From: Promethearchaeota archaeon
Lineage (GTDB): Archaea; Asgardarchaeota; Lokiarchaeia; Sigyniarchaeales; Sigyniarchaeaceae
NCBI GenBank assembly: GCA_041305945.1
Contig: JBGLND010000001.1
Coordinates: 3,216,218 to 3,280,217 of the forward strand
DNA length: 64,000 nt
Direction of reading: 5' to 3'
Every line of letters begins with the position of its first letter. Positions within the stretch are counted from its first letter, which is position 1. The notes beneath the pieces were generated by a model. It was not told where the DNA came from. It saw nothing but the letters and a program-made list of their open reading frames with translations, and made no database searches. The position numbers and the translations under genes are program-made. Below, in pieces: positions 6,901 to 42,494 of this stretch.

Positions 6901-7064
6901 TCATTTGATAGGGACCCGACAGGAATTCCCAAATTCGCAATACTCGTGCCAGAACTCGTCCCTTGAGATGCCAAGAAATAACAAGCATAAAAGCAGCAAG
7001 ATACCGTGATGGCTAACGCCAATCCGATCCGTATCTTGTCTTGATGCCAGAAACGATGTTGCAC
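3876..7064 (-). CDS. Large secreted/surface protein with N-terminal signal/anchor and repeated PPC-like (pre-peptidase C-terminal-like) beta-sandwich modules
   Basis: The 1062-aa ORF has a hydrophobic N-terminus (LALAITVSCCFYACYFLA). It contains at least 3 internal ~100-aa repeats with G(Y)DIKVWLGVPTGCNYELDVF, YIYLDVPVGCQYDLHAY and LYNIILDISSADDLNVEIFRL motifs, and it is Ser/Thr/Gly-rich. Its 3-prime end overlaps the truncated LivF fragment by ~80 nt. Confidence 0.65.
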   Translation of the reverse strand: MQHRFWHQDKIRIGLALAITVSCCFYACYFLASQGTSSGTSIANLGIPVGSLSNDIANPQLLNDGINDGESFTPAVDEFYYRSNSSIVASAYSAFTVYSSQIDVDMAFYTHVLPHTSTLRGTFIGSTANLKWMVFHHPSMIPIGYSLRPRVNTTGATGTGWVEWEQSTSLSLSGSTTISFYNQDDFIELVHCTMPSSVPGYIYLDVPVGCQYDLHAYKVASSACVRGDAPDYSSASGSTGVNEVLCIDDPGAEYVIVIARYGTTRTSTTMRFVPHRFLSDDVGVTDSISTGKIMNYSSDENINVDRLQLVYIGESNPPSQDFNLALYRKGVQVGVSAQPSSSFEFLVYNPSGTSTGTLNPVVSAPSGSGIFGIEWEQATPITLDTEISLSFSSTDAMELYQFTSPASGYDIKVWLGVPTGCNYELDVFRVTPNTCTWTDPHSSHSGTSVNECVDFTPAASTLYGILVRSVSGTATATLRVARVLSSGLPFDTVTNSGISSPYFWYRKMSVPTVESNYYFTFGEWSTSTPQIANLEMGVQSSTDKTILDTTQISNLTRWNVFRESTAQIRYPFIHSLSDSSMAYFGLFQGSSLPFGGSLAPAYTNKHAIYTVSLSSSKNYRFHLDVPWNGKFHMHVFYLAPGASTSSWQDYHVNGSSIGSDLTLQFKPLFSNTYAVVLVDCLLEPGNNAALEIEEIPETLTDGIPLAALMSNPDMPYYYETHGMSSSQYHLVSAWSPTVTFDMKVFSSNQYSVLLGDPLDTGSNVEWLVYKPSSGSSPIYPRVNTIGSTGTVYVESQSATTLALNIPVSSSLSSNKFAAVYEISTMEEGKLYNIILDISSADDLNVEIFRLAGGSCRLSGIDAGGSQLEFRQSISGGSSDEHIIDFSPEVSGATYVIVVYKASASSGAASFSIAVYRHNRVPYFDVTGDGYTQVNSNHFTYSVRYFDADNEAPSPNPVQVVIDGTPFNMTKQDDGDNVYTDGCLYIYTTWLDEGDHEHYFQASDGINMNRTPSSGAYTGPSVNHCPLLFDAGAVNPASGTNTTVCRYDRDGKSRSWWLSRGKT

Positions 7065-7705
7065 AGCTTGTCGATATCATACCCGGGTTTCGTGATCAAG
7101 TGACCCCCGCCGAGATTTATCCATTTTAGCCCGTGCAGTAACGACCCGAATTTCGCCTCGACAGCGGCGAACACACGTTCCAGCGCGTCCGCGCCTTGCT
7201 CGCACAAGCAATGGAAGTGGATTCCTTCTATCCCGCCCGGGATGCCGTGTAGCTCGCTGGCAACGATGCCGAGGCGTGAACCGGGGTTACAAGGGTCGTA
7301 AAGCGGGGTTTTGACCTCCGAGTACTCGGGGTTCACGCGCAAGCCGCAGCTCACCGGTTTCCGGGCTGACCGGACTGCATCCTTGCTTCGTTCCCACTGG
7401 GCCACCGAGTTGAACACGACATGGTCCGCGACCTTCAGGATCGCATCCAAGTCCCTGCCGGGGTACGCGGGGGCGTAGACGTGCACCTCCTTCCCAAATT
7501 TTTCCTTTCCCAGCCGCGCTTCGTGCAATCCAGACGCGCACACGCCATTAAGATATTGTCGCATGAGCGGGAAGGTGGCATGCATGGCAAATGCTTTCAG
7601 CGCGAGCAATATCTTCACGCCCGTGCGGTCATGAATCGACTTGAGGCAAGCCAAATTTTTCTCCAGCAACCGCTCGTCCACCACGTAAGATGGGGAATGC
7701 ATCAT
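7013..7705 (-). CDS. nspC: Carboxynorspermidine/carboxyspermidine decarboxylase (NspC/CANSDC-like, PLP fold type III)
   Basis: YVVDERLLEKNLACLKSIHDRTGVKILLALKAF and a C-terminal CEQGADALE region match CANSDC. The ORF can extend to 7822, but the likely start is MMHSPSYVVDE at 7705. The gene is paired with the adjacent saccharopine-DH family gene. Confidence 0.65.
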   Translation of the reverse strand: MMHSPSYVVDERLLEKNLACLKSIHDRTGVKILLALKAFAMHATFPLMRQYLNGVCASGLHEARLGKEKFGKEVHVYAPAYPGRDLDAILKVADHVVFNSVAQWERSKDAVRSARKPVSCGLRVNPEYSEVKTPLYDPCNPGSRLGIVASELHGIPGGIEGIHFHCLCEQGADALERVFAAVEAKFGSLLHGLKWINLGGGHLITKPGYDIDKLCNIVSGIKTRYGSDWR

Positions 7706-7707
7706 CG

Positions 7708-9006
7708 CTAGGAGATTCTTGTCGATTCCACCAGGTGCCATGGCAAGCCACTCTTCCCCATCGATTCGAGGAACGGTTCCGGGTCCAGCTGCTCGACGTT
7801 GAATACGCCCTTGCCTTTCCACTTGCCGTCAAGCACGAGCCCCGCGCCGCAAGCCGCGGGGACCCCGGCAGTATACGCCACAGCGTTTTCCCCGACTTCC
7901 TTGAAGGCAAGCTCGTGATCGCAAGTGTTATAGATGAACATCGTTTTTTCCTTTCCATCCTTTAAGCCCGTTAGCAAGCACCCGATGACCGTTTTCCCTT
8001 GATAGTTATCGGCCAGCGAGTGCGGGTCGGGGAGCAAGGCCTTGAGGAATTGCAACGGAACCACCGGTTGGCCGTTGTACACGACGGGATCGATGCGGGT
8101 CATCCCGACGTTCTCGAGCACCCGCAAGTGCGTTAGATAGGCCTCGGAGAAGGTCATCCAGAACCGGCACCGTCGCACCCCGTCGAAGTGCTTCGCGATG
8201 GATTCCAGCTCCTCGTGATAGAGCAAGTACACCTCTTTTGGACCTACAACCGGAAAATCAAAGGTCATGTGCACGCTGCCTGGCGAGATGATGGGTGGGG
8301 TCTCGACCCACCGGCCGCCATCGAAATGCCGCACGACCTGGGTGACCTCGCGGATGTTGATCTCCGGGTTGAAGTTCGTGGCGAATGCTTGGTGGTGGTT
8401 ACCAGCATTGCAATCTAGAATGTCGATCGTCTCGACTTGGTCGAGGAAGTGCTTCGAAACGTGCCGACAATATGCATTGGTTGCGCCAGGGTCGAACCCG
8501 CAGCCAAGGACTCCCATGATGCCCTGCGCCTAGTATCGGTCGTTGAAATCCCACTGCGGCTTGTATTCGAAGTGGGCAACTCCCGGCGACTCGAAATTGG
8601 CCGTGTCGAGGTAATGCGCGCCCGTGGAGACGCATGCCTCCATGATGGCCAAGTCGTGGTACGGCAGGGCGACGTTGATGACGATGTCTGGCTCGAACCG
8701 TTTCATCAATGCTTGGAGTTCCCGCGGCTCGTTTGCATCGACCTTGGCAACTTCAACGTTCCGGTCAATACGTGCCCGTATCCGTTCACATTTAGAAAGT
8801 GTACGGCTCGCCACGCAGATTTCCCCGAACGTGTTAGCGTCTTTCGCGCATTTTTGCGATACGACAGACCCCACGCTCCCCGCCCCGATGATGAGGACGC
8901 GCCCGAGCCGAGTTTTTCCCATTCCGTGGTTTCCTCGCGATGGCCTTGATCGTGGTTTTCCGAGATCCGGCAATGCATAATGGTTGAAAAAAAAAATCAT
9001 GGCCAT
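7708..9006 (-). pseudogene. Carboxynorspermidine dehydrogenase (saccharopine dehydrogenase family) interrupted by an in-frame TAG
   Basis: The N-terminal 158 aa (GRVLIIGAGSVGSVV Rossmann) and the C-terminal 269 aa (GVLGCGFDPGATNAY...) are in the same frame. A single TAG at 8530-8532 separates them: ...FNDRY*AQGIMGVLGCGFDPG, checked base by base. Confidence 0.7.
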
Positions 9007-9292
9007 CCCGCTGGCGTGTGTGGCTTTGTTTGTCCCTTCCCGACCCGGCAGAGCAGTGTCGCGGTGCTCGGCCGTGTTGGTTCGTGCCCCGGCATGGTTA
9101 AGACCGGCGTGGTGGGTCTAAATCCAAGGAAGATACATTTCATTCAACATCAAGGTAACATCAACCCCTCCTGCTTCCCGCGCGTTCCGGGCACTTGCGA
9201 TTTGCTCGTGCCCATCTCGTCACGTGATTATTCATTCCCGGACCCGCGGGACGGCAGCTAATTCTCCCGTTGCGCGCTCCGGGCACCTTGCT

Positions 9293-9308
9293 GAAAAATA
9301 TAATATGT
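9293..9308 (+). promoter_or_regulatory. Putative archaeal TATA box (AAAAATATAATA) ~25-35 nt upstream of the ATG at 9331
   Basis: This is an AT-rich box in an otherwise GC-rich intergenic spacer. Its spacing is consistent with a leaderless or short-leader archaeal transcript. Confidence 0.35.
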
Positions 9309-9330
9309 CCCACTGGAACTTCCTCTCGCG

Positions 9331-10335
9331 ATGTCTGATCTTGACACGGTAACAAGGATCGAACTCACGCCCGTGAACGTGCCGTTCAAGGCGATCGTTC
9401 GCCAAGCGATGCTCGCCGGGGCAGGTGGCTTGGGGATGGCGATACCAAGCGACGAGCCGTGGCTCGGCGGCGACTTCGTGATATGCCGGTTAGAAACCGG
9501 GAATGGCACGACGGGACTCGGCGAGGCATACATCTGGCTCCCCGAAACGGGCCAAACAACCGGCCAGATCATTGATGTCATCAAGGTCGCGCTCCACCGG
9601 TACGTCATCGGGGAAAATCCCGGGAACTTCAAGAAAATAAAGGCCCGTATGGACGTAAACGTCGCGAGAAATGAGGTTGCAAAGGGCTTGCTGGATATCG
9701 CCCTCTATGACCTCGTCGGGAAGCTAACGAACAAACCCGTTCACGAGATCATCGGCGGGAAGAGATGCGAGACGCTCCCCCTCGCGGCATTGGTTCCTCT
9801 CGGCAAGCTGGAAAGCATGGTGGAATACGCGCTGGTTTTCAAGGAGATGGGCTACAAGACGCTCAGGGTCAAGCTAGGCACCAGCATTCAAGATGATGCC
9901 ACGATCATGGCCGCCATCCGTGACGCTGTTGGACCCAAGATACGACTACGGGTGGATTACAACCAAGCGTACGCCGTCCCAGACGCGATCACGGCGATCC
10001 AGGCCATCGAGCCATTCGACATCGACGTCGCGGAGCAACCGGTTGCCATGGACGACTATCTGGGCATGAAAACCGTCCAAGAGCGTGTAAAGACCCCCTT
10101 GATGGCGCACGAGGGGTGCTTGGTCCTCGCTGCAACGAACGAGGGGCTCGGAACATGCTGGGTCGGCTACTTCGACGAGGAGAAGGTCAAGTCCGTATTG
10201 AACGTCCCCGCGAGATCCCGGATCGTTGCCATCACGCCCCTTGGTTACCCCGACGAGGAACCGAAGCCAACGTCACGCAAGGCCATCGACGAGATCGCGT
10301 TCCTGAACGAGTATGGTGCGAAGTATGTCTCTTGA
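9331..10335 (+). CDS. Chimeric ORF: enolase-superfamily (mandelate racemase/muconate lactonizing enzyme) N-terminal ~255 aa fused in frame to a nitroreductase C-terminal ~75 aa
   Basis: The MR/MLE part has ligand-region motifs (RVDYNQAY, DVAEQP, PLMAHEG). The sequence then switches to a nitroreductase tail, CLVLAATNEGLGTCWVGYFDEEKVKSVLNVPARSRIVAITPLGYPDEEP. This tail closely resembles the C-termini of the ferredoxin-nitroreductases at 15271 and 20718. Confidence 0.55.
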   Translation: MSDLDTVTRIELTPVNVPFKAIVRQAMLAGAGGLGMAIPSDEPWLGGDFVICRLETGNGTTGLGEAYIWLPETGQTTGQIIDVIKVALHRYVIGENPGNFKKIKARMDVNVARNEVAKGLLDIALYDLVGKLTNKPVHEIIGGKRCETLPLAALVPLGKLESMVEYALVFKEMGYKTLRVKLGTSIQDDATIMAAIRDAVGPKIRLRVDYNQAYAVPDAITAIQAIEPFDIDVAEQPVAMDDYLGMKTVQERVKTPLMAHEGCLVLAATNEGLGTCWVGYFDEEKVKSVLNVPARSRIVAITPLGYPDEEPKPTSRKAIDEIAFLNEYGAKYVS

Positions 10336-10349
10336 TGCGGGTGGATGCG

Positions 10350-10370
10350 TGCCATTTCCATTTTATTTCC
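10350..10370 (+). terminator. Oligo-T tract downstream of the 9331..10335 ORF
   Basis: The sequence is ttccattttatttcc. Archaeal terminators are T-rich runs. Confidence 0.25.
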
Positions 10371-10438
10371 TATGGAACAGGATGTTTCGGTTTCCCCCAA
10401 CCAACCATGCTCTGGTTTCCCCATGGTGGCAACCCGTG

Positions 10439-10642
10439 TTAATTGCTGTTTTTCATCGAGTCACGCTTGACCTTCAAGATATCCAGTTTTTCTCCCAAGA
10501 ACAAGCATTTCTTTTCGGACACGCGTTCCAAGTGCTCGATTAATTCTTCAACCTTCTCTACGTGTCCCATCTTCACGATGATGTTTTCGAACTGCTCGAC
10601 ATCTTCCATCTCGCAGACTTTCTTCAAGAAGACGGGATCCAT
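10439..10642 (-). CDS. Small hypothetical protein (67 aa, helical, acidic)
   Basis: The ORF has AT-rich codon usage that differs from the antisense frame. No family was recognised. Confidence 0.3.
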   Translation of the reverse strand: MDPVFLKKVCEMEDVEQFENIIVKMGHVEKVEELIEHLERVSEKKCLFLGEKLDILKVKRDSMKNSN

Positions 10643-10704
10643 TTTCGTTCATCGATCTATTCCTCGCCCTCCATCTTTTTTAGGTTTTATTCAGATACCG
10701 GGAG

Positions 10705-11712
10705 CTACATGAAAATGGATAGCAGCGTGCCAAGCACCAGCATGACAACGAGGAATGGCAAGATGAGCTTGGTGTTTTTACCGGTAAGCAAAGCTATGCC
10801 CACCCAGTCAAGCCAGAGCCACTTGCGGATGAAAGCCTGCTTTTTTGGATTCAAGCGCAGCATTCCTTTCTCCGGGCGTGGTCCTTCGCTTACAAGATGG
10901 ATCCTTGTTTTTCCCGTTTTCAAGGCGGTAATGATCCCCGGGATGGAACGGTCATCCGTCAAGATTTCGGTGTATGCGCGTTTATGTTTCGCGGGGTCGT
11001 GCACGTCGGTGCCTGCGCTAGCATACATGACCCGCCGTGCCTTGTTGTCCTCGATGAAATCCAAGGCTTCCGTGTCCACGAACCCGAAGCCGTTGTAGAC
11101 CTCCCAGCCATCGATGCCTTGCTCCATCCACCAGCCCCGGGGGAGGTGCTTCAAGATGTCGTAGGGATACCAAGCCTTGTGGTTGAACTGCACGACACCG
11201 CCCTCGGCGTGGGCGTGATCGATGGCAGCCTTGATGGTGCTCTTCCTTGTCCAGAGCATGCCTGGCTTCCGTGGCGGTGTCTTGATGCCGATGAGGTTCA
11301 TGTGGGCGCGCATGGACGTGAACTCGACGCCCGTGATGACGACAAACTGCGGGTCGATGCTTGCCGCCGCTTCCTTGACGGCTTCGACGTTATCCATGGT
11401 GTTATGGTCAGAAACGCACACCCCGTTGTACCCGTTGGATATCGCCCAGAGCACGAGCTGCCGGGGCGAGAGCACGCCGTCCGATGCCGTCGTGTGGCAA
11501 TGCAAGTCGACCAGGAACGCGCCTTCCGGGACGCCTGGCGGCCGGGTGCCCTTGTACACCAGCGCCTCGTCATCATAATAGTCGTGGTACCAGAACGTTG
11601 ACAGGGCAGCGAACGCGTACGATACGAAGATGTATGCAAAGACACCAGTGCCGAAAGCGAGCAGTATCCAGAAGTTCATGCCGAGAGTCCCCGGTTCACG
11701 TTTTGATGCCAT
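10705..11712 (-). CDS. PHP-domain metal-dependent phosphoesterase with N- and C-terminal transmembrane segments
   Basis: It has the PHP motif DLHCHTTASDG and further His/Asp clusters (SDHN, HAHAEGG, GTDVHD). Hydrophobic helices sit at both ends. Confidence 0.7.
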   Translation of the reverse strand: MASKREPGTLGMNFWILLAFGTGVFAYIFVSYAFAALSTFWYHDYYDDEALVYKGTRPPGVPEGAFLVDLHCHTTASDGVLSPRQLVLWAISNGYNGVCVSDHNTMDNVEAVKEAAASIDPQFVVITGVEFTSMRAHMNLIGIKTPPRKPGMLWTRKSTIKAAIDHAHAEGGVVQFNHKAWYPYDILKHLPRGWWMEQGIDGWEVYNGFGFVDTEALDFIEDNKARRVMYASAGTDVHDPAKHKRAYTEILTDDRSIPGIITALKTGKTRIHLVSEGPRPEKGMLRLNPKKQAFIRKWLWLDWVGIALLTGKNTKLILPFLVVMLVLGTLLSIFM

Positions 11713-12598
11713 TCATGGACGCGAGGACCTTGTAAAGCCCTTGCGTGCCGAGGTTTTCCAGCCCCTGAGCCATTGCCGAGACGTAGAACTGGTTCGCGAG
11801 CGCGAGTCCTGGTAGCGATAAATTCATCCGTCTCGCCTCGTCCAAGGCAATGCCCATGTCCTTGACGAAATGCTTGATGAAAAAACCGGGATTGAAATCT
11901 CCCTTGATGATGCGCGGCCCGTAATTGGTCAACGACCAGCACCCCGCGGCCCCCTTCCCGATGATGTTGATCATCCCCGATTGATCGAGCCCCGCCTTCT
12001 GGGCGTAGAGCATGGACTCCACGACGCCTATCATGGTGGACGCGATCAATATCTGGTTGCTCATCTTCACGTGCTGGCCCGCACCCGCGGGCCCGAAGTA
12101 TCCTATCTTTTCCTTGTCGCCCATGAGCTGGAAGACCGGGAGCAACGCGTCGAACGCTTCCTTATCCCCGCCGGCCATGATGGCGAGCGCGGCGTTTTTC
12201 GCACCGACATCGCCTCCCGACACGGGGGCATCTAGCACCAAGATGCCCTTTCCCGCGGCATGTGCCTGCCCGTGGATGCGTTTTGCCAGGCTCGGTTCCG
12301 ACGTGGTCATGTCGACGAGGATGGCCCCCGCCCTCGCCCCGGCCACGATCCCGTCCTTTCCAAGGTATATCTCCTCGACATCCTTCGGGAACCCGACGAT
12401 GGTGAACACCACGTCGCTTCGTTCGGCAACCTCCCTTGGTGAATCGCACCACGTGGCACCCAGATCGACAAGCCTTGCTGCCTTGTCCTTGCTACGGTTG
12501 TGCACGAACGCCTTGAAGTTGCCCTTGCTCATGACATGCTTGCACATGCTGCTGCCCATCACGCCCGTCCCGATCCAGCCAATCGATTTGGTATTCAC
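11696..12598 (-). CDS. 3-hydroxyisobutyrate dehydrogenase/tartronate-semialdehyde reductase family NAD(P)-dependent oxidoreductase
   Basis: It has the GWIGTGVMGSSM dinucleotide-binding motif and 6-phosphogluconate-DH-like NAD-binding and C-terminal domains (AGDKEAFD, KDMGIALD). Confidence 0.8.
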   Translation of the reverse strand: MNTKSIGWIGTGVMGSSMCKHVMSKGNFKAFVHNRSKDKAARLVDLGATWCDSPREVAERSDVVFTIVGFPKDVEEIYLGKDGIVAGARAGAILVDMTTSEPSLAKRIHGQAHAAGKGILVLDAPVSGGDVGAKNAALAIMAGGDKEAFDALLPVFQLMGDKEKIGYFGPAGAGQHVKMSNQILIASTMIGVVESMLYAQKAGLDQSGMINIIGKGAAGCWSLTNYGPRIIKGDFNPGFFIKHFVKDMGIALDEARRMNLSLPGLALANQFYVSAMAQGLENLGTQGLYKVLASMNGIKT

Positions 12599-12666
12599 TT
12601 TCTCGTTACCTCGCCGAATGTATAGAAATAGTGGAATGAATGTATTAGAAGTAATGGATTAAAACG

Positions 12667-13203
12667 GTGCAAAGACCAGAACATGCCCATTCGAGCTGGA
12701 TGATTATGGAAAAACGAATACTCTCGGTATTATCCTTCACTGTCGTGATGCTTGCCACGTGCGTGCTCGCGACTGTCCAAACCTCGCGGTTTCACGTTCC
12801 GCAACAGGTCGAGCTTGGTGCTGCCCCCGGTTGCGTTCCAGTTGTATCAAGCTTGATACCCGTGGCGCCATTCATCATAGACGAGCTTGGCGGCGGGAAT
12901 TACACGTGGACAAGTCTCCGCGCCACGGAAGCAAGTTGGATAAGCGGGTCTGGAATAACAAGCGACCCGTATATTATTGACGGCATTATCATCGACGTGA
13001 ACCAGACAATCAAGTATGCTCTCGTCGTGAACAATTCTCGCGTGCATTTCATCATTCGTAATACAAGCATCACCGATGTTCTCGGCGTGATGTCGGGAGA
13101 TGGTGCCATGACCCTTTCAAACACGAGCAACGGGCGCGTGACTGGATGCACGTTCTCGGACTGGGGATACGCGGCCATCTACATCGCGCGGGGAAGCACG
13201 TGA
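12667..13203 (+). CDS. Secreted right-handed parallel beta-helix (pectin-lyase fold) repeat protein, short N-terminal-type piece
   Basis: A signal-peptide-like stretch (MEKRILSVLSFTVVMLATCVLA) is followed by beta-helix rungs resembling the 31135 ORF. It is only 178 aa and therefore probably truncated. Confidence 0.45.
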   Translation: MQRPEHAHSSWMIMEKRILSVLSFTVVMLATCVLATVQTSRFHVPQQVELGAAPGCVPVVSSLIPVAPFIIDELGGGNYTWTSLRATEASWISGSGITSDPYIIDGIIIDVNQTIKYALVVNNSRVHFIIRNTSITDVLGVMSGDGAMTLSNTSNGRVTGCTFSDWGYAAIYIARGST

Positions 13204-13298
13204 TGGGGTTCTCGATCACCTTCTTGGGTTGAGGGAATGGATTGCCACCCGTGCGGATACCAAGATGTCGCGGATCGTGGTGTCTCCATGCTCTTCCC

Positions 13299-14714
13299 TT
13301 ACACGGCGGGGAGTTCGCACGTCATCACGACGGGATCGTGGTCGCTGAGCCAGCGCGGCCCTGCGTTCGCCCCGGTGCATGTTTCGATCGACGCCACGTG
13401 CACGTCGGGCGTCACGAAGATGAAATCGATGGTCATGGGGGGCACGAACCCGCCCGCCAGTCGAGCGGCGTTGTAGACCGGCTTGGAACCGAATCCTTCC
13501 AGGAACGAGTAGAACGGGAAGATGGGCGGCATGTTGAAGTCGCCGGTCACTATCACGGGCAGGGTTCCCGTGCGGCGCGCGATGTCGCCGTTCAACATGG
13601 CCGATGCCTTCACGTGGAACTCTGGATAGAAGCCATAATGCGTGTTGTAGAAGAAAAACTCCGTGCCGGAATCCTTGTCTTGGAGGTGGACCCACTGGTA
13701 GGTCCGCTTGATGGCCTCGGTGAGCCACGTCCGGCTCGAGACGGTTGGCGTGTCCGAGAACCACAGGGTACCGTTATCGATGAGGGTGAACTTGTCCATG
13801 TCGAAGAAGATGGCATCGTGCTCCCCGGTAAAGTTCCCGCTCGGTGTCTCCCGGCCGATGCCGACCCACGTGTAATTGCGGTTCGAGAGCGTGGCGTTGA
13901 GATAATCGCCTTGTATCCTGAACACCTCCTGGAGCCCGAACACGTCCAGGTCCAGGGATTCGATGTAGCCGGAAAGGGGCTCGCGGCGGTCCATCCATTC
14001 CATGAGCGAGCCATCCTCGCCCGCGTAGAGGATGTTGAAGGTCATGGTCTTGATGACCAGTCCGTCCTGGATGCTTGGACGGTTCGCGGGGCTGGCCACG
14101 AGCACGAGGGCGGACACGCATGCAACGGCCACGACCATGCCGATGGCTTCCCTCCGCAATGCACGCGTGCCCGGATTCCCTTGGTGCAAGTCGTACCCGT
14201 TGTAGAACGGCACGCCGTGCTTCGCCGACACGCACGCCACGATCCCCGTCCCGGCGCAAAACGCCACGATGTACGCCGCATCGCCACCGGAAAAGCGCCC
14301 GGCAACCACCACGCCATGAAACACGGCTAACGCGCCCGCAAGCGTTGCGATGAAAAACCGGAAAATGCCCGCGCGAATCTTCTGGCCGGTTTTCAATGAT
14401 TTCCCAAGCGGGGATGTCAAGTTGCTCCCCCTCAACATCACGTGCCCGAAGATGCGCAAGACGATGGTGGTGAAGAACATGACTGTTATGATGGATATCC
14501 AAGGGCCCACTAGCACGATCAGGCCCATTTCAGCGAGGATGTGCACCCACTTTCTCCGGTCTTGTTGCGTGTAATGGCGGTAGTAATATACGCTCAAGGG
14601 ATAGGCAATCCATGTTGCCAAGACGAGGAGGATCGCGTTGAATTCGAGCAACAGCATCGTGGCGGCCTCAGCCGGGTCCTCGGGACGCGCGAGAGGAGTG
14701 GTCCTCAATTTCAC
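13299..14714 (-). CDS. Membrane-anchored endonuclease/exonuclease/phosphatase (EEP) family hydrolase
   Basis: The N-terminal ~200 aa has 4-5 hydrophobic helices. The C-terminal EEP domain has TFNILYAGE, a central GTEFFFYNTH motif and SDHDPVV. The + ORF 13242..14330 is antisense and spurious. Confidence 0.65.
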   Translation of the reverse strand: MKLRTTPLARPEDPAEAATMLLLEFNAILLVLATWIAYPLSVYYYRHYTQQDRRKWVHILAEMGLIVLVGPWISIITVMFFTTIVLRIFGHVMLRGSNLTSPLGKSLKTGQKIRAGIFRFFIATLAGALAVFHGVVVAGRFSGGDAAYIVAFCAGTGIVACVSAKHGVPFYNGYDLHQGNPGTRALRREAIGMVVAVACVSALVLVASPANRPSIQDGLVIKTMTFNILYAGEDGSLMEWMDRREPLSGYIESLDLDVFGLQEVFRIQGDYLNATLSNRNYTWVGIGRETPSGNFTGEHDAIFFDMDKFTLIDNGTLWFSDTPTVSSRTWLTEAIKRTYQWVHLQDKDSGTEFFFYNTHYGFYPEFHVKASAMLNGDIARRTGTLPVIVTGDFNMPPIFPFYSFLEGFGSKPVYNAARLAGGFVPPMTIDFIFVTPDVHVASIETCTGANAGPRWLSDHDPVVMTCELPAV

Positions 14715-14749
14715 GGCAATCCTTATATTGTCTTGCGTTGGTATAGAAC

Positions 14750-15172
14750 GTGAAAATCATCGTGGCGGTAGATGGCATGGAAAGAAACGAGAAAGCTCTT
14801 GCCCCGCGGGTCTTCAAGGCCGCGTTGTTCTTGTGCCGTGGTTCCGTGGCCGGGTGGGCCGGATTTTACTTGCTCGTCGTCATCTTGCTTTTTTTTGCTG
14901 AAGATGGGCATCTCGCGCACCAGCTCGTCCATCCCGTTGCATGCGGGTACCTGTTCACCGGCATTCTCGGTTCCTGGTTCATGAAAAAGAAAGGCCGGGA
15001 CGTGCTCGGCAGCAGCATCCTGTTCTTGGGCTACATCATCACGACATGCATTGTCGTGGTACTCGCGTTCCCGCTCTTCATCCCTGCTGCCACGGGGTTC
15101 AAGTGGTACGTCTACGTGATGCTGGCGTGTCTCTTCGCGGGTATAATCGGCGCCAGCCTTGCCATCAGGTGA
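14750..15172 (+). CDS. Small hypothetical membrane protein (3-4 TM)
   Basis: The ORF has hydrophobic segments. No family was recognised. Confidence 0.35.
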   Translation: MKIIVAVDGMERNEKALAPRVFKAALFLCRGSVAGWAGFYLLVVILLFFAEDGHLAHQLVHPVACGYLFTGILGSWFMKKKGRDVLGSSILFLGYIITTCIVVVLAFPLFIPAATGFKWYVYVMLACLFAGIIGASLAIR

Positions 15173-15270
15173 ACGCGATGCGGGGCACGGGAGAAGCATT
15201 GAAAAACCGACCCGAGATATACTCCACTGGCTCATGAACTCGCCAGGCCACGACACGAGGCATCAACCAC

Positions 15271-16077
15271 ATGAAGATACGCGGTATAAACGAGGACCGG
15301 TGCATCGCATGCAAGGCGTGCGTCGAACGCTGTCGCCGCTTCACGTTTGACGAGCACCAGCAGAAGGTCACCTTCTCGGATCCGGATTTTTCTTGCATAG
15401 ACTGCGGGCATTGCCTGGTCCTTTGCCCGGTGGACGCGATCGAGCACGTGGATCTCGGGGACGTCATGGTGGAGACCAGCAGCATCCCGGCCAGCCAGCG
15501 TGCAGTGCCGTACGAAAACTTGTTTAACATGATGCGCGTGCACCGGTCGATCCGCCGGTACAAGCCGGACCCCGTGCCACGGGACGTGCTCGCCAAGGTC
15601 ATCGACGCGATGCGGTACGCGCCGACGGGCATGAACATGCGGAGCGAGAAATTCGTCGTGATATCCAGCACGGATGTCATCCGGCAGCTGTCCGGGGCAG
15701 TGATCGAGGCGCTCATGGCGAACCCGGGGGCAAAAGCAGCCTACGAGAAGACGTTCGCGTGGCTGGCTTCCAAGTTCAAGGCACCGGCATACTTCGACGC
15801 GCCGCACGTCATCATCGGGTACTCGCAGATGGACATGGATATCGAGGATACCAATCTCGGGATCGTCATGACGTACGGGCGCCTGGCCGCCGAGGCACTG
15901 GGCTTGGGCACCTGCTGGAATGGCTGGACGCAAATGGCCATCAAGGGGAACAAGGACATGCAGAAACTATCGGGCGCCAAGGGCGTGCGGTTCGCGGCCA
16001 TGACCCTCGGGTATCCTGCAGTCCAGTACCCGCGCAGCGCGCCGCGCCCCCCGCCCAAGGTAAAGTGGGTCGATTGA
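15271..16077 (+). CDS. 2x[4Fe-4S] ferredoxin-domain/nitroreductase-family fusion protein
   Basis: CIACKACVERC and CIDCGHCLVLCP are ferredoxin motifs. They are followed by a nitroreductase fold (RRSIRRYK, GLGTCWNG). Confidence 0.8.
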   Translation: MKIRGINEDRCIACKACVERCRRFTFDEHQQKVTFSDPDFSCIDCGHCLVLCPVDAIEHVDLGDVMVETSSIPASQRAVPYENLFNMMRVHRSIRRYKPDPVPRDVLAKVIDAMRYAPTGMNMRSEKFVVISSTDVIRQLSGAVIEALMANPGAKAAYEKTFAWLASKFKAPAYFDAPHVIIGYSQMDMDIEDTNLGIVMTYGRLAAEALGLGTCWNGWTQMAIKGNKDMQKLSGAKGVRFAAMTLGYPAVQYPRSAPRPPPKVKWVD

Positions 16078-16206
16078 TGGTAAAGGCTCGCCTCTATAAC
16101 GTGCTATGCAGCACGCGGTTGCAATCGGCGCCAGCCTTGCCATCCATTGAATCACGGTCTAATTCGTGCTTCGTCCATCAATACCCATCCCCAGATAGGT
16201 CATGAA

Positions 16207-19200
16207 ATGCGGTTCGAACAAGTTATATTCTTGAATCGTTTCCTTGAAAATATCAAACACGGTTTGAAAATCCTTCACGCGTTCAACGAGTCGTATCTCG
16301 TCAAGAAGAAGGATGAGAAGGCCATCGCGTCCATCGCGCGGCATCTCTCCACCTTCAAGGTATTCCCGCTCGAAGGCAGCGGCAAGAAGGAGCCGCTCGC
16401 CAGCTTGGACGACCCCCGTCTCTTTCCTCGGAAGCTCGCGTTGCCCTCGTTCCTCGCTTCGGGATTGAAAGGAACGAACGACATGCGGTACCTCGACCAG
16501 GACATCGATGCATTGATCGAACGGATCAACATAGAATTCCCCCACAAGACAAAACTCGAGAACATCAAGCTGGACGTCTTGCTCAAGATGCCCAAGCTAT
16601 GGACCCCGACGTTGAAAGAAAAGGATGACCATCTAGCATTCATCAACTACATCACGGTCATCGCGAGGGTGCGTTATTACCGGGAAAATGACCCCGTGCA
16701 ATGGAATCGATTGCTCGGTCAATTGCAGCTCAAGGTGGAGGGTTCCAACGATTTCAAGCCGTTGAATCTGCTGGTGCCTGTTTTTATTCGGAACAACTTC
16801 AAGGCGTGGTGGAACCGGCTCACGGGCTCGTTTGCACAGCAGGAAGATTTCACGTTTGGCCACCACGACGAGGCCTTTTACGGCAAGGTTACCTCGACCC
16901 AAATCGATGGGATGATGGAAGGCAACGAATCGGCGTGCCAAGTGTTCGATAACAATTATTTCATGACCTTGATGATCAGTTACTTGAAATCAAAGGAATC
17001 CACGTGGCAAGGCGAGGATGTTATCAAGCATTTTGCTAAAAACTTGTATAACGTGCTTCAAGAAAATGAGCGTGGTAAAAAACCCGACCGAACCGTTCAG
17101 CGCGATCATGTAAGCACGTTGCTTGACCTGCTCGTTTCGAGAACACGTGACCACAATCCTGCGCTGTTCCAGAAATACTACTTGAACGCAAGAACAAATT
17201 TCTTCCGATATATCTTGGATACCAATGAATACATCGACCAAGATAACGATTTTATCATTTCCATCCGGCATCTCATGAAAAATGCAGTTTTATCCGAGCC
17301 ATTTAATGACGAGTTGATCGACGCGTTCATATCCAGCAAGTTCAAGCAAGTGAATGATCTCTTCACGATCGAACGTGTGGCAGAGAAATTCAAGAACGTG
17401 CAAATTAACAAGAGCACGCTGGTTGAAATGAGCGCGTTCTTGGAAGAATTTAACGCGTACCTGACGAGCTTGGGACTCCAAGACGGTCTCGCGTTGTTGA
17501 AAGGGCACGCGCCTGGCGGCGGGAAACCAGCAGCGGGCCAGCTTTCGGGCTTCGAGGCCTTGAAGCGGGACATGCAAGTGGTCCTCAAGGTTTCCGACGA
17601 CGATGCAAGGAACTCCCCGTTCTCCTTCCAGCAAGTCTTTTCAAAGAAAGGACAAAAGGACCCGAGGCTGTCGGGGATCGAGGAAATTCACGAGTTCGTG
17701 CCAGGTTTCATTTACTGGGAGACCCTTCTTTCAAAATTCGGCCTCCAAGAGAAACAAGTTGAACCATTCAAGGCATTCTTCGAGATCACGCCGTTGGCCG
17801 TGGACGACCTCTTGCATTACCTCCGCCAAACGAGCGGGAACGCTGCGCGGAAAAACCAGGAACAGCTGTTCGTCCTGGCCAAGTTCTTGATCGAGCGTTT
17901 CTTCGAGGCTTGGTCATCATCATCGCTCGATGTTGCCATGTTTCCGGTCTTGAAATTGAGCGAGAGTGGCATGGTCCAGAAGCAATTCTTGTCGTGGAAT
18001 GGATTGATCGATAACAACGTGTTTTGCACGTGCAATCAAGAGGTCATCGAGGAGCTCGGTTCGAAATTGCAGAAGAAGGGAAAACCCGTGTATCTCCTGT
18101 TCGACAAGCAGCACACCGACGAGTTCGAGAAGTGGTACGGGCTGGTCAACACGATCCTGGAAACGATGAAAGGGGCGAAAATATTTTACTTGGAAACCAT
18201 CCAGAGCAAGATCGCGAACATCAACGATGCTATCACGCAATCATCGCGTGACCAACTCGTTACCTTGGAACGCAAGAATCCTTTCTTCAACGAAACGATT
18301 TTCATCCGGTACTTGTTGCCGATCCTGCAAAAATGCAGTTTCCCTCACACCTTCAAGGATATAAACATCCTTGACGTGGATGCTGCCTTCTTGAACAATT
18401 CATTCGTGTTTGATTACCTGTCCGAGACCGATGCGGACATGACCGTCGAAAAATTTGACGGGGTTGTCATTGACATCAAGAAAGAGAAAATCACCACGTT
18501 TTTCGAGCCGCAAGTCCACCCGCACAAGCAAGCCGTCATCATCTACGTCTCGAAAACATTCAAGAAAAGCGACCAGAAGAACGAGTATTACAAGTTCTTG
18601 TTCCGGCGGTTGTTTCCGAAGCAAAAAATGGAAAAAGGCGCGTATTCACAATTCCTCGAGTTTTTTAACTGGATGGACGATTTCGACAGGACGTTCTTCG
18701 AGGACACGGCTGATCCCGGTGCCATCGAGGCTGGGATACTGGACTACGTGTACCAGCGCAACACTTTACAGCTGAAGGCCAGCAAGTCATACGAGATCGG
18801 CAAGGAATTGCGAGCGTTCTGCGACGCGTGCCAAGAAACGTGGCTGGAACTGCGCCCATCGTGGAGCGCATCAACGGGTGCAAGAGAGCTGCCCGCGGGA
18901 ACCGTTGACGCGTGGACGCGTTGGTTCGACCTGATCGCGAGCCACCTTGCCCTCGACGAGGTGGGTAAAACGAAGAAAGTCGAGCTCCGGCTCGACGGGG
19001 ATGGCAAGCACGTGTCCGTCGAGATACGGTACTCGCTCGGTTCCAAGGATGCACCTTTCCCGAAAACTGCAACGGGGAAACAGGATTACATCAAGGCCAT
19101 GATCACCGCCATCACGCAACATTTTCTTGACCCCGGCAATGGCATGCGCGGCTCGATCGAAAGCGTGTTCCCCGGGGCCGGCCTACTCGACGTGAAAGGC

Positions 19201-31134: not shown

Positions 31135-31650
31135 GTGATTCCAATGCTTGGCCATCCTCCAAACCATCACCGCGTCAGCTGGCGTTCGGTTGTGCTTGTC
31201 ATGCTTCCGATTGTCGCTTTAAGCTTGCTTGGGCAACCGGTCGTGACCCGCCAGCTCGCGCCCAACACGACCTCGGGAACGCATTCAATCGGCGTTTCTT
31301 ACACGGTACACGCTCCCATCACGATTTCCAATGCATCCGAACTCGAAACGTTTGCTGGCATAACCGGAAACGGGACAGTGGGTGCTCCTTTCGTCATCGA
31401 GGGGTTGATGATCGACGGCACGTCGACCGCTTGCATCAGCGTTTCTAACACGCATGTTCCCCTCGTGATCAAGCGCTGCTTGTTGTATTCACCTTCCATG
31501 GGAACCACCGGCGTGATGCTCTCGAACTGCTCGAACGTGTCGATCGCGGACAACAGTATCTCATCGCTGACGCAAGGCATCGTTGCCACGTCATCCTCGT
31601 GGAACAACATCCGGAACAATTCCATCACCGTCATTTCATGTCATCGGATT
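31135..31650 (+). pseudogene. Secreted parallel beta-helix repeat protein, N-terminal fragment
   Basis: A signal or anchor is followed by beta-helix rungs (NASELETFAGITGNGTVGAPFVIEGLMIDGT..., SNCSNVSIADNSIS). Beyond ~31650 the frame runs antisense through the SPFH gene. Confidence 0.45.
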
Positions 31651-31700
31651 TTCATCACGGATTCACTTCGTCGATGCACGCAAAGCCTTGAACCCGGTTT

Positions 31701-32390
31701 TCACGTGATCCTGTCTCTTCGGGAGAGAAGCGCGTCGTGCCCGGTAACATGCCCGGCAAGGCCGCCTGTCGTCGTCACGGTGTCGATGGTGACCGACTCG
31801 ATACCGATGCCGTGTTTTTCCATCATCGTGGTGAGCTGGTTCGCGATGCTCGATGCAAGCCGCGCCTTGGTGTCCTCGCGGCTTTCCTCGATCTCTTTCC
31901 CCGTCGATGCAAGTGCTCTCGTCAAGAAATGGCTTGCATGCTTTTTTAAAATCGTTTCCACGAAATTGGCATCACTTGGTTGCCATGAAAAAGCATTGTA
32001 TGCAATGTCCGGTTGCATTACCTTCCACAAGATCGACATCGACGCGGAGATCATGTATCCGCCCTTGTTCTGCACACCCGTGGCCTCGATGGCCAAAGAT
32101 TGAACTGATGCGGGGAGGACCTTCACCTCGTCGATCAAGGGAAGCTTGTACAGCGTTCCACCGAGCCCTGCATACTTGATCCTTCCATGCCGCCAGTGAA
32201 TGACGTAGACGTTCGTGCTGAATTTACGGTACCTACCAACCAGAAACAACAAAAAAAATAACGAAAACAGGACCATCGCTACTAATGGCAAGATAAACAT
32301 CATATCCGAAAAACCTTGGAACAGCGTTTTCGTTCTCCTCCATTCCAGTTCAAGTATGGAATCCAATCGAGTACCTACTAAGATATACAA
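31701..32390 (-). CDS. SPFH/band-7 (stomatin/flotillin-like) domain membrane protein
   Basis: It has an N-terminal TM (MMFILPLVAMVLFSLFFLLFLV) and an SPFH core (VIHWRHGRIKYAGLGGTLYKLPLIDEVKVLPASVQSLAIEATGVQNKGGY). Confidence 0.65.
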   Translation of the reverse strand: MYILVGTRLDSILELEWRRTKTLFQGFSDMMFILPLVAMVLFSLFFLLFLVGRYRKFSTNVYVIHWRHGRIKYAGLGGTLYKLPLIDEVKVLPASVQSLAIEATGVQNKGGYMISASMSILWKVMQPDIAYNAFSWQPSDANFVETILKKHASHFLTRALASTGKEIEESREDTKARLASSIANQLTTMMEKHGIGIESVTIDTVTTTGGLAGHVTGHDALLSRRDRIT

Positions 32391-32400
32391 TATAACGTAT

Positions 32401-33426
32401 TTATCTTGTTCTGTGTTCCATCGCGTGCTTGTACAGCCCCTCGATGACCCGGAGCGCCCCGATGCATTGCTTCCCCGAAACCCGGGGCTCGTGGTCGTCC
32501 ATCGTTATCCCCTTGCAGAAATCCGCAAGCAACCTCACGTGTGACAGCATTTTCGTGTTTATACCCGCTTGTTTTGCCATCACGGTGCAATCGGTGGTTG
32601 TCGTGTTCCCGTTTTCATGAATTTTGAACGTGTCTGTTGAAACCGAGACAGCGCGCCCCGTGCCCGAGATGGTCACGTCCCAGAACGAGGGGTGCTTCGT
32701 TCCGATGGATGCCTTGATAGTCCCCATGACCCCGGCCATGCTCGCGTGGTTTCCTAGCGTGAATGCAGCCACCGCGGTGTCCTCGGTCTCGATGGGATGA
32801 ACCAGCGTTGCTATGAACCCGCGTGCGAGTACTTCCTCCCCGTTTGCATGTAACAGATACAAGAGCAAGTCGATCTGGTGAATGGCTTGGTTAAGCAACA
32901 CCCCGCCGCCTTCCATGTTGATCTTCCCGCGCCACCCGTCATTCGGAAAGTACTCGGGGTCGCGCTTGAAAAACGCGCTGGCGCTGGCTTGGAGCGGCCT
33001 CCCAAAGCTCCCGTCGCTGATGGCATCCATCGCCAGCGATGTCGACTCGTTGTACCGGTTCTGGAAGTACGCCCCGATCTTGACGCCTCCCCGGCCGGCA
33101 CGTGCGATGACGTCTTCAGCGTCCTTCACCGACGTTGCGAGGGGCTTCTCGACCAGCACGTGCTTCCCGGCCTCTATCGCCTCGATGGCAACGTCGTGGT
33201 GCAAGAAATGCGGGAGCGAGATGATGGCAAGGTCCACGTCCTTCCTTGCAAGCAAGTCCCGGTAATCGCCCGTCACCGCCGGGATGCCATGTTTATCCGC
33301 CAGCGCGCGGGCCTTATCGACATGATGGTTCGCGATGCCCGCGATCTCTATGGTCCTCGATTCGCGGGCAGCCGTCGCGATGGTGTTCGCCGACCATCCC
33401 GCCCCGATCAACACCGCACGAACCAT
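32401..33426 (-). CDS. Gfo/Idh/MocA family oxidoreductase
   Basis: It has VRAVLIGAGWSANTIA, the EKPLA motif and a GGGVLLNQAIHQIDL C-terminal domain. Confidence 0.85.
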   Translation of the reverse strand: MVRAVLIGAGWSANTIATAARESRTIEIAGIANHHVDKARALADKHGIPAVTGDYRDLLARKDVDLAIISLPHFLHHDVAIEAIEAGKHVLVEKPLATSVKDAEDVIARAGRGGVKIGAYFQNRYNESTSLAMDAISDGSFGRPLQASASAFFKRDPEYFPNDGWRGKINMEGGGVLLNQAIHQIDLLLYLLHANGEEVLARGFIATLVHPIETEDTAVAAFTLGNHASMAGVMGTIKASIGTKHPSFWDVTISGTGRAVSVSTDTFKIHENGNTTTTDCTVMAKQAGINTKMLSHVRLLADFCKGITMDDHEPRVSGKQCIGALRVIEGLYKHAMEHRTR

Positions 33427-33444
33427 GACGCGTCACCCCCGTGC

Positions 33445-34482
33445 TCACAAGGTCACGATCTTCTCGCCGTTGGACTCGTACACGGCACGCACGACCTTGA
33501 TGGACTTCAATCCTTCCTCGCCGTTGATTGCCGGCTCCCTGTCGTTGATGATGGCATCCACGAAATCGTTCATAAGGCGCGAGTGGGCCACGAGCGAGAA
33601 TTTCTTCGGGTCAGTGGCCGAACCGACCTGCCCCCCTTGTCGAGCGGCGTAATCGATGACGTCGGTCTTCCCGTCCCCGTGATGGATCGTGAGCACGTTC
33701 CCGTCGATTTCCAAGCCCCCGTCCGAGCCGAAGATGGTCAGCTTCGCGGGAAACGCGGCCTTGGTGGCGGTGCTCGTCTGTAAGGTGCCCAGCGCCCCGT
33801 TCTCGAAGACGAAGCACGCCGCGGTGTTATCATCCACCTCGATATCGTGCACCATGTGCCCCCAGAACCCGAATAACCTCGTCACTTTGCCGGCTAGGTA
33901 CACCATCTCGTCCACGGGGTGGATGGCCTGGTTGATCAGCGACCCGCCCCCTTCCAGCTTCCACGTGCCGCGCCAGCTGCTCTTCTTGTAATAGTCTGCC
34001 TCCCGGAACCACATCACGCTCACGTTCACCTGGAGGATACGGCCGATCTTCCCCGAATCGATGAGCCGCTTCGCTTCTTGCACGGCATCGAAGAACCGGC
34101 ACTGGAAGTGAACGCCAAGCTTGACCCCTCCTGCCCGGGCGGCCTTGATCATAGCCTCCGCGTCGCCAACAGTCGTCGCGAGGGGCTTCTCGACGAGCAC
34201 GTGCTTCCCCGCCCCGATGCAATCCAAGGCGATGTCCTTGTGCAACCCGTGCGGGACCGATATGATGGCGAAATCAAGCGGGTGCTTCAACAATTCCCGG
34301 TGATCGTCAAACACGAGATTGACGTTATGTTTCTTGGCCAGCATTTCCGCGGCAGGTTTGTGCACGTCGCTGACCGCGACGAGTTGCACGCCCGGTAACG
34401 TGGCGATGGTTTCGGCTATGTTGGTCGCGGACGAGCCGGCGCCTATCAAGCCCGCCCTCAAGATATTCTTCGTGTCATTCAT
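33445..34482 (-). CDS. Gfo/Idh/MocA family oxidoreductase (tandem paralog)
   Basis: It has LRAGLIGAGSSATNIA, EKPLATT and GGGSLINQAIHPVDEM. Confidence 0.85.
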   Translation of the reverse strand: MNDTKNILRAGLIGAGSSATNIAETIATLPGVQLVAVSDVHKPAAEMLAKKHNVNLVFDDHRELLKHPLDFAIISVPHGLHKDIALDCIGAGKHVLVEKPLATTVGDAEAMIKAARAGGVKLGVHFQCRFFDAVQEAKRLIDSGKIGRILQVNVSVMWFREADYYKKSSWRGTWKLEGGGSLINQAIHPVDEMVYLAGKVTRLFGFWGHMVHDIEVDDNTAACFVFENGALGTLQTSTATKAAFPAKLTIFGSDGGLEIDGNVLTIHHGDGKTDVIDYAARQGGQVGSATDPKKFSLVAHSRLMNDFVDAIINDREPAINGEEGLKSIKVVRAVYESNGEKIVTL

Positions 34483-34499
34483 AATCGTTCACCATGTCG

Positions 34500-40635: not shown

Positions 40636-40962
40636 TTATGCCCCGAGCAGCTGGGCCAACGTGCGCCCCGTGAAGGGTCTGACGCCCGGCGTGCGCATCA
40701 CGAAGAAGCTGACATTCGGCACTTTAACAATCCCCATCGTCGAGGAAACGTGGCGCCAGACGCCCGTGTTCCACCCGACCTTCCACGAGTGGGTCCACGA
40801 CACGTTCAGCGGGCTGCCGGGGTACGATTTCTCCCCGCGCACGATGTCCATCTCGATCTCGTCGGTCTCAACCACGCCAAACATGATCCCAACGGACTCC
40901 TTGTACTTCTTCTCGAAAAAATCGAAAATTTTTTTCAAATCGTTTCCATCATCGAAGCTCAT
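40636..40962 (-). CDS. Small hypothetical protein (~108 aa)
   Basis: Starting at MSFDDGNDLKKIFDFFEKKYKE, the ORF has A/T-rich gene-like codon usage. There is no family call, and + ORF 40661..41209 covers the same region on the opposite strand. Confidence 0.3.
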   Translation of the reverse strand: MSFDDGNDLKKIFDFFEKKYKESVGIMFGVVETDEIEMDIVRGEKSYPGSPLNVSWTHSWKVGWNTGVWRHVSSTMGIVKVPNVSFFVMRTPGVRPFTGRTLAQLLGA

Positions 40963-42488: not shown

Positions 42489-42494
42489 AGTATC

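What the first reader, a model, noticed from the sequence alone, without database searches (positions are those of the whole stretch)
9331..10335. Seamless in-frame chimera: enolase-superfamily (MR/MLE) N-terminus + nitroreductase C-terminus
The MR/MLE-like sequence runs through its metal-ligand region (...PLMAHEG). It then continues without frameshift into CLVLAATNEGLGTCWVGYFDEEKVKSVLNVPARSRIVAITPLGYPDEEP, the characteristic C-terminus of the nitroreductase fold. The same tail occurs in the two ferredoxin-nitroreductase paralogs in this window (15271, 20718). A functional enzyme with this topology is implausible, because both folds are broken. This is either a recombination or deletion between a nitroreductase paralog and an MR/MLE gene, a misassembly, or an engineered or generated sequence.
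Basis: seen in the sequence. Interest (0 to 1): 0.6.

Follow-up and report, generated by a model that had tools for sequence, protein, structure and literature searches.

The report
Chimeric ORF from spacer-less contig concatenation
The "enolase-superfamily + nitroreductase fusion protein" is not a real gene: it is a reading frame that runs by chance across the point where two unrelated ~3-kb metagenome contigs were pasted end to end without a spacer, so it is an assembly/record artefact of no biological interest.

Summary
The ORF 9331-10335 (+) exists as described. Residues 1-263 are an MR/MLE enzyme cut halfway through its barrel domain. Residues 264-334 are the last 71 residues of a nitroreductase. 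It is not biology. Sister MAGs of the same species (~99% identical) carry both parents intact and at different loci: a 390-aa MR/MLE gene followed by an amidohydrolase, and a 175-aa nitroreductase next to the PHP gene. The window switches from one parent to the other at 10121/10122, with only 1 nt shared. The same kind of sharp break recurs at 7029/7030, 13198/13199, 16277/16278, 31635/31636, 34684/34685, ~40820-40831, 43892/43893 and 46946/46947. These breaks delimit blocks of 3.05-3.09 kb in roughly descending order. Genes are cut at the edges wherever the neighbouring gene could be checked. Two blocks match real ~3.1-kb contigs of a sister MAG almost end to end. Two edges were predicted from the block-length model before they were checked. 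The 3.7-Mb source record is therefore best explained as length-sorted MAG contigs from an Asgard archaeon, concatenated without N spacers. The donor of the tail is not either ferredoxin-nitroreductase paralog in the window. Any feature in this window that straddles a block edge is suspect.

The parts
9331..10335 (+). Chimeric ORF (334 aa) that reads across a contig-contig join
   Evidence: identical to P0001, which occurs only on the 3,705,313-bp record
9331..10121 (+). 5' fragment (codons 1-263 plus 2 nt) of an MR/MLE-family gene; the intact gene is 390 aa in sister MAGs
   Evidence: 98% identical to P0002/P0150. L001 and L002 match without gaps up to 10121 and then continue into the rest of the gene. 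The parent has a full MR_MLE_C domain, profile positions 6-219 of 219.
10122..10335 (+). 3' fragment (last 71 codons and stop) of a stand-alone 175-aa nitroreductase gene
   Evidence: Identical or near-identical to L005 (intact gene, 3889-4416 minus) and to L007. 69/71 residues match parent residues 105-175.
10121..10122 (.). Join between block A and block B. Only 1 nt (T10121) is shared by the two parental sequences. Codon 264 is a hybrid, TT|G.
7030..10121 (.). Block A, 3,092 bp: one former contig
   Evidence: 99.26% / 99.32% identical without gaps to L001 and L002. Homology stops sharply at both ends.
10122..13198 (.). Block B, 3,077 bp: one former contig. It equals the real contig L007 (JBFYKN010000283.1, 3,114 bp) minus about 30 nt at one end and about 8 nt at the other.
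7030..7741 (-). 5' fragment of an Orn/DAP/Arg-decarboxylase-family gene (384 aa when intact in L001/L002), cut by the left edge of block A
7708..8922 (-). Saccharopine-dehydrogenase-like gene (404 aa in sister MAGs) carrying an in-frame TAG at 8530-8532 in the window
10705..11679 (-). PHP-domain gene (324 aa, P0184), the native neighbour of the nitroreductase gene together with the 67-aa ORF at 10439-10642 (-)
12706..13198 (+). First ~164 codons of a 715-aa NosD/beta-helix gene, cut by the right edge of block B
   Evidence: L004, L005 and L006 continue into the gene while the window does not
13199..16277 (.). Block C, 3,079 bp
   Evidence: L008 matches 14380-16277 and then continues differently
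31636..34684 (.). Block of 3,049 bp. Both edges were predicted from the block-length model and then confirmed.
   Evidence: L017 (4,350 bp) reads through both edges
40820..43892 (.). Block of ~3,062-3,073 bp (left edge between 40820 and 40831). It equals the real contig L010 (JBFYKN010000384.1, 3,069 bp) to within 4-17 nt at each end.
43893..46946 (.). Block of 3,054 bp
   Evidence: L016 (12.7 kb) reads through both edges, and L009 reads through the left one from the other side

Best explanation
The window comes from a public 3,705,313-bp record that is not a contiguous genome. It is best explained as the contigs of an Asgard-archaeal metagenome-assembled genome, roughly sorted by length and concatenated head to tail with no N spacer. 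Shown: position 10121/10122 is a point where a block ending inside an MR/MLE gene abuts a block beginning inside a nitroreductase gene. Both fragments happen to lie on the same strand and in the same frame, with no stop codon, so an ORF finder reads one seamless 334-aa 'protein'. Inferred: no such DNA molecule or protein exists in the organism, and the concatenation was made during preparation or submission of the record.
For: (1) Both parents are intact and unlinked in sister MAGs of the same species. The 390-aa MR/MLE gene is followed by a 557-aa amidohydrolase in L001 and L002. The 175-aa nitroreductase lies beside the 67-aa ORF and the PHP gene in L005. (2) The window follows L001/L002 at 99.3% without gaps up to 10121 and follows L005/L007 from 10122. 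The parents share 1 nt at the join. (3) Block A is also cut sharply at its other end, 7029/7030, inside a decarboxylase gene. (4) Block B coincides with an independent real contig, L007 (3,114 bp), to within about 30 nt and about 8 nt at its ends. Another block coincides with the real contig L010 (3,069 bp) to within 4-17 nt. (5) Nine sharp edges were confirmed against 11 contigs from 4 MAGs: 7029/30, 10121/22, 13198/99, 16277/78, 31635/36, 34684/85, ~40820-31, 43892/93 and 46946/47. Block lengths are 3092, 3077, 3079, five averaging 3072, 3049, two averaging ~3070, ~3062-3073 and 3054. (6) The length model predicted edges at 31588-31645 and 34662-34707 before testing, and they were observed at 31635/6 and 34684/5. 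(7) Genes are truncated at the edges where checked: the ABC ATPase, Prismane, two AMP-binding enzymes, the NosD-like gene and a sulfatase. (8) There are no N runs in the window. (9) No other protein among the 120 best of 818 homologues has this architecture.
Against: I could not see the source record's metadata or any reads, so the act of concatenation is inferred from sequence structure and not documented. Block lengths are only approximately monotonic (3049 precedes ~3070). Blocks are not byte-identical to the sister-MAG contigs: there are a few SNPs, and the ends differ by 4-37 nt. The source is therefore a separate assembly of the same population and not simply those contigs pasted together. 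Edges between 16278 and 31635, between 34685 and ~40820, and after 46947 are predicted, not individually confirmed.
Confidence: 0.94

Rival explanations
1. A real strain-specific rearrangement (deletion, translocation or insertion of a 3.1-kb fragment) fused the MR/MLE gene to the nitroreductase gene, producing a chimeric pseudogene in this organism.
For: The join is present in a public record. The 3.1-kb block also carries a nonsense codon in the saccharopine-dehydrogenase-like gene, which could be read as a decaying region.
Against: It would require independent breakpoints about every 3.07 kb across at least 40 kb, each cutting genes. Several would have to coincide within a few nt with contig ends of an independent assembly, and their spacing would have to be predictable from a length-sorting model. 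There is no microhomology, repeat or mobile element at the join.
Confidence: 0.03
2. An assembler mis-join: a chimeric contig created inside the assembly graph through a shared k-mer or repeat between the two genes.
For: Chimeric contigs are common in metagenome assemblies. Sister-MAG contigs also end near these positions, which shows the graph is broken there.
Against: The parents share only 1 nt at the join, far below any assembly k-mer. There is no repeat between the two loci. A graph mis-join would not produce a regular series of ~3.07-kb blocks with roughly descending lengths.
Confidence: 0.02
3. A genuine bifunctional or novel-fold fusion enzyme family (MR/MLE N-terminus plus nitroreductase C-terminus).
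For: An uninterrupted in-frame ORF with significant hits to both families.
Against: Both domains are truncated. MR_MLE_C loses profile positions 106-219, and Nitroreductase loses positions 1-125. The architecture is unique to this one record among the listed homologues. Relatives at 99% identity have the two genes intact and separate.
Confidence: 0.005
4. A synthetic, engineered or machine-generated sequence.
For: Seamless joins of unrelated gene fragments.
Against: Every block tested is 98.6-99.8% identical to natural MAG contigs from four independent assemblies, with strain-level SNPs.
Confidence: 0.005

Closest known systems
Pseudo-molecule or concatenated MAG records, with spurious fusion ORFs at contig joins (a data artefact class)
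   Same: Sharp loss of synteny at regular block edges, genes cut on both sides, block ends that match independent contig ends, roughly length-sorted order, and chimeric ORFs wherever frame and strand happen to agree.
   Different: Such concatenations are usually separated by runs of N. Here there is no spacer at all, which is why the ORF looks seamless.
MR/MLE (mandelate racemase / muconate-lactonizing enzyme) subgroup of the enolase superfamily: the parent of residues 1-263
   Same: The N-terminal capping domain and the first half of the barrel domain are present. The parent P0002 is a normal 390-aa member, about 60% identical to Asgard, Abyssobacteria and Deltaproteobacteria homologues annotated as muconate cycloisomerase or MR/MLE family.
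   Different: The window copy lacks the last 127 residues (profile positions 106-219 of MR_MLE_C). No NCBIfam equivalog reaches its cutoff (best 95 bits against 335), so the parent's specific reaction is unassigned.
Small stand-alone nitroreductases (PF00881 / PF14512 TM1586-type): the parent of residues 264-334
   Same: The tail is 69/71 identical to residues 105-175 of the intact 175-aa gene in L005.
   Different: The window lacks the first 104 residues of the parent, that is, more than half of the domain (Pfam positions 1-125 of 167). The tail is not related at DNA level to the two ferredoxin-nitroreductase genes in the window.
De Bruijn-graph chimeric contigs (inter-locus misassembly)
   Same: Two unrelated loci are joined in one sequence.
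   Different: Those joins occur through shared k-mers or repeats and are sporadic. Here the overlap is 1 nt and the joins are periodic.

Membership tests
MR/MLE enolase-superfamily enzyme | N-terminal capping domain (PF02746) | tested here: met
   Residues 49-142, profile positions 28-117 of 117, E 2e-11
MR/MLE enolase-superfamily enzyme | Complete C-terminal barrel domain (PF13378, 219 positions) | tested here: not met
   Only profile positions 6-105 of 219 are present in the chimera. The parent P0002 covers 6-219.
Nitroreductase family (PF00881 / PF14512) | Full-length nitroreductase domain including its N-terminal half | tested here: not met
   Only profile positions 126-167 of 167 are present. 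The intact parent is 175 aa, and its PF14512 match spans residues 3-168.
Natural MR/MLE-nitroreductase fusion family | The same architecture recurs in independent genomes | tested here: not met
   Of 818 homologues (120 listed), only P0001, the query itself, carries both domain sets. Its 90% cluster has a single member.
Natural MR/MLE-nitroreductase fusion family | Orthologous loci in close relatives show the fusion | tested here: not met
   L001 and L002 have the intact MR/MLE gene followed by an amidohydrolase. L005 has the intact nitroreductase at another locus.
Spacer-less contig concatenation artefact | Homology to independent assemblies switches abruptly between two unlinked loci at the join, with no meaningful microhomology | tested here: met
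   (1 nt shared). The same holds at 43892/43893.
Spacer-less contig concatenation artefact | Block ends coincide with ends of independently assembled contigs | tested here: met
   L007 against block B (about 30 nt and about 8 nt). L010 against block 40820-43892 (4-17 nt).
Spacer-less contig concatenation artefact | Recurrent edges with genes truncated on both sides, and block sizes following a sorting rule | tested here: met
   Nine edges were confirmed. Blocks are 3.05-3.09 kb and roughly descending. Two edges were predicted in advance.
Spacer-less contig concatenation artefact | No sequencing reads span the joins; record metadata show a multi-contig origin | not testable with these tools
   No read data or record metadata are available. 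The genome is absent from the genome contigs and assemblies indexes.

The most novel reading that the evidence does not exclude
The join at 10121/10122 is physically real in this strain: an illegitimate-recombination event created a chimeric MR/MLE-nitroreductase pseudogene within a heavily rearranged genome region.
Probability: 0.03. Interest if true: 0.2.

Novelty: not a real feature. Interest (0 to 1): 0.04.

Why it matters
The finding has no biological significance, but it matters for data hygiene. The whole 64-kb window, and presumably the 3.7-Mb record, is a string of ~3-kb contigs joined without spacers. Any first-stage finding that depends on gene order, operon structure, fusion proteins, truncated genes or long-range context across a block edge is unreliable. 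Examples are the apparent four-gene operon at 41-47 kb and the ORFs crossing 31635/6 and 34684/5. Spurious fusion proteins such as P0001 have already entered a public protein collection.

Tried and rejected
1. Recent copy of a window paralog: blastn and tblastn of the tail against the window found no DNA match and only 28% protein identity to the 15271 gene. Rejected.
2. Partial duplicate with an intact copy elsewhere in the same genome: the 90% cluster of the intact protein has no member on the 3.7-Mb record. Not supported, and it could not be fully tested because the record is not browsable.
3. Simple deletion between MR/MLE and a downstream nitroreductase: downstream genes in the relatives are an amidohydrolase, a DUF3795-like ORF and a NIF3-like ORF, not a nitroreductase, and the left edge of the block is also broken. 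Rejected.
4. Protein search with the 72-aa tail returned only short partial proteins at 56% identity or less, and not even the query's own protein, so it was uninformative about the parent. The parent was found instead through the neighbouring PHP gene.
5. Genome-contig scan for the missing MR/MLE 3' part found nothing. The species is not in the GTDB representative set. The second scan gave only 46-62% relatives: three labelled Asgard (Ca. Sigynarchaeum springense and two Promethearchaeota MAGs), one labelled Bathyarchaeota and one an unclassified uncultured archaeon.
6. Scans of JGI metagenome contigs for the exact junction and, as a control, for the intact parental sequence both returned nothing, so this falsification test was uninformative.
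7. A literature search for the MAG accessions found no papers.
8. L003, a cluster member of the intact protein, turned out to be unrelated, eukaryote-like DNA and was discarded.
9. A strictly monotonic length order does not hold exactly: a block of 3049 bp precedes blocks of ~3070 bp. I claim only 'roughly sorted'.

Full report
OBSERVATION. ORF 9331-10335 (+) encodes 334 aa. Pfam finds four matches:
- MR_MLE_N at residues 49-142.
- MR_MLE_C at residues 167-263, covering only profile positions 6-105 of 219.
- Nitroreductase at residues 264-306, covering only the last 42 of 167 profile positions.
- TM1586_NiRdase at residues 263-327.
NCBIfam shows the same split, and no equivalog comes near its cutoff. 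The in-frame, doubly truncated chimera is therefore really in the sequence. There is no DNA similarity to either, and only the 15271 gene gives a weak protein match (28% identity, E 0.009).

ORTHOLOGOUS LOCI. A homologue search returned the exact protein (P0001) only from one NCBI record of 3,705,313 bp. It also returned a 98%-identical but normal 390-aa MR/MLE protein (P0002), followed by hundreds of ~390-aa MR/MLE proteins at about 60% identity, many from Asgard archaea. None of the 120 listed hits other than P0001 carries a nitroreductase domain. P0002 and its cluster mate P0150 lie on contigs L001 (GCA_041305845.1) and L002 (GCA_041306025.1). These two contigs are colinear with each other at 99.1%. 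Their gene order is decarboxylase (384 aa), saccharopine-dehydrogenase-like (404 aa), MR/MLE (390 aa), amidohydrolase (557 aa), a DUF3795-like ORF and a NIF3-like ORF. The window matches them at 99.3% without a single gap, but only over 7030-10121. Homology stops dead at both ends. The right stop is exactly the MR/MLE-to-nitroreductase junction. The left stop cuts the decarboxylase gene.

THE OTHER PARENT. The first gene to the right of the junction, a PHP-domain protein, has 99-100%-identical orthologues in four sister MAGs. In L005 (GCA_041306025.1) the PHP gene and a 67-aa ORF are followed by an intact 175-aa nitroreductase. Its TM1586-type domain match spans residues 3-168. The chimera's residues 264-334 equal residues 105-175 of that protein at 69/71 positions. 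At nucleotide level, the window is MR/MLE up to T10121 and nitroreductase from 10121/10122 onward. The two parents share just that one T, so there is neither homology nor a k-mer-sized overlap. Codon 264 is a hybrid, TT|G.

WHY THIS IS A CONTIG JOIN AND NOT BIOLOGY.
(i) Block B (10122-13198, 3,077 bp) also ends abruptly. L004, L005 and L006 continue into a 715-aa NosD-like gene that the window lacks after 13198.
(ii) L007 is a genuine 3,114-bp contig of GCA_041305905.1. Its PHP protein is identical to the window's. It spans block B and overhangs it by only about 30 nt at one end and about 8 nt at the other.
(iii) The same pattern recurs:
- An edge at 16277/16278 (L008).
- Edges at about 40820-40831 and at 43892/43893. 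The real 3,069-bp contig L010 ends within 4-17 nt of these, while L009 reads through both.
- An edge at 46946/46947 (L016 reads through).
(iv) Block lengths are 3092, 3077, 3079..., ~3062-3073 and 3054. From this I predicted intermediate edges at 31588-31645 and 34662-34707. L017 then showed sharp breaks at 31635/31636 and 34684/34685.
(v) Genes are truncated at the edges where they could be checked:
- The ABC ATPase lacks its N-terminal half near 3.94 kb.
- The Prismane ORF lacks profile positions 1-193 near 25.5 kb.
- An AMP-binding enzyme stops at profile position 271 of 384 near 28.5 kb.
- Another AMP-binding enzyme lacks its C-terminal domain near 0.8 kb.
- A sulfatase is cut about 8 codons before its end at 43892.
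(vi) The window contains no N.
A series of near-equal, roughly descending blocks, whose ends coincide with contig ends of an independent assembly and cut genes on both sides, is what length-sorted MAG contigs concatenated without spacers look like. A real genome does not look like this. Whenever two cut genes happen to face each other on the same strand and in the same frame, an ORF finder reports a 'fusion'. This finding is one such case.

WHAT IS SHOWN AND WHAT IS INFERRED. Shown: both parents are intact in relatives; the base-level breakpoint; nine edges; the coincidence with real contig ends; the successful prediction of two edges. Inferred: that the record was produced by concatenation (I could not see its metadata or reads), and that the untested edges exist where the model places them.

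RIVALS.
- A real rearrangement would need a breakpoint about every 3.07 kb, each coinciding with assembly breaks. I give it ~3%.
- An assembler graph mis-join is unlikely given the 1-nt overlap and the periodicity. I give it ~2%.
- A genuine fusion family is refuted by the truncated domains, the uniqueness of the architecture and the intact orthologues.
- A synthetic origin is refuted by 98.6-99.8% identity to natural MAG contigs with strain-level SNPs.

LINEAGE. The species is not in the GTDB representative set. Of the five relatives found for the PHP gene in that set, three are labelled Asgard (Ca. Sigynarchaeum springense and two Promethearchaeota MAGs, 46-62% identity), one is labelled Bathyarchaeota (55%) and one is an unclassified uncultured archaeon (52%). 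The best named MR/MLE and PHP protein hits are mostly Asgard as well (Promethearchaeota, Hodarchaeota, Sigynarchaeota, Lokiarchaeota). The source is therefore most likely an Asgard-archaeal MAG.

VERDICT. Interest is very low, except as a warning that this window's long-range structure cannot be trusted.

Noticed in passing
window 8530-8537 (minus strand, gene 7708-8922): The saccharopine-dehydrogenase-like gene reads CGATACTAG (R-Y-stop) where both sister MAGs read CTATTCGAG (L-F-E). Three substitutions within 6 nt split a 404-aa gene into two ORFs. This could be a local consensus error or a real nonsense mutation; which one is undetermined.
   Followed up: partly
window 31078-32103 (+); 34500-35573 (-) and 34517-35167 (-): Other long ORFs run straight across confirmed block edges (31635/31636 and 34684/34685), so they are likely further spurious 'fusion' or extended ORFs of the same kind as the finding.
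   Followed up: partly
window 41037-46885 (+): An apparently tidy four-gene plus-strand 'operon' (sulfatase, sulfatase, 700-aa ORF, 262-aa ORF) is really two unrelated blocks joined at 43892/43893. The second sulfatase is cut about 8 codons before its native end.
   Followed up: yes
window 3876-7064 (-) and 16147-19404 (+): Two giant ORFs (1062 and 1085 aa, no Pfam hit) each fill almost exactly one ~3.08-kb block and overshoot it slightly. They are probably internal fragments of much larger genes, a kind of gene that often assembles poorly.
   Followed up: no
window 13080-13198 versus L007 1-150: SNPs between the window and the otherwise near-identical contig L007 cluster in the last ~40 nt before the block end. 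This is consistent with error-prone or strain-mixed contig tips.
   Followed up: no
L003 (Logan SRR33713739 contig, 9,113 bp): A 55-aa 'member' of the 90% cluster of the intact MR/MLE protein lies on a contig that shows no bacterial or archaeal gene structure and looks eukaryotic. It appears to be a spurious cluster assignment.
   Followed up: partly
window 15271-16077 (+) and 20718-21542 (+): The two ferredoxin-nitroreductase genes are complete, with Fer4 plus a full PF00881 domain. They lie on different blocks, so their apparent proximity to each other and to the chimera carries no information.
   Followed up: yes
tool behaviour: The word-seeded protein search with the 72-aa tail returned only short partial proteins. 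It missed both the query's own 334-aa protein and the 97%-identical 175-aa parent, so negative results from short queries in that tool should not be trusted.
   Followed up: yes
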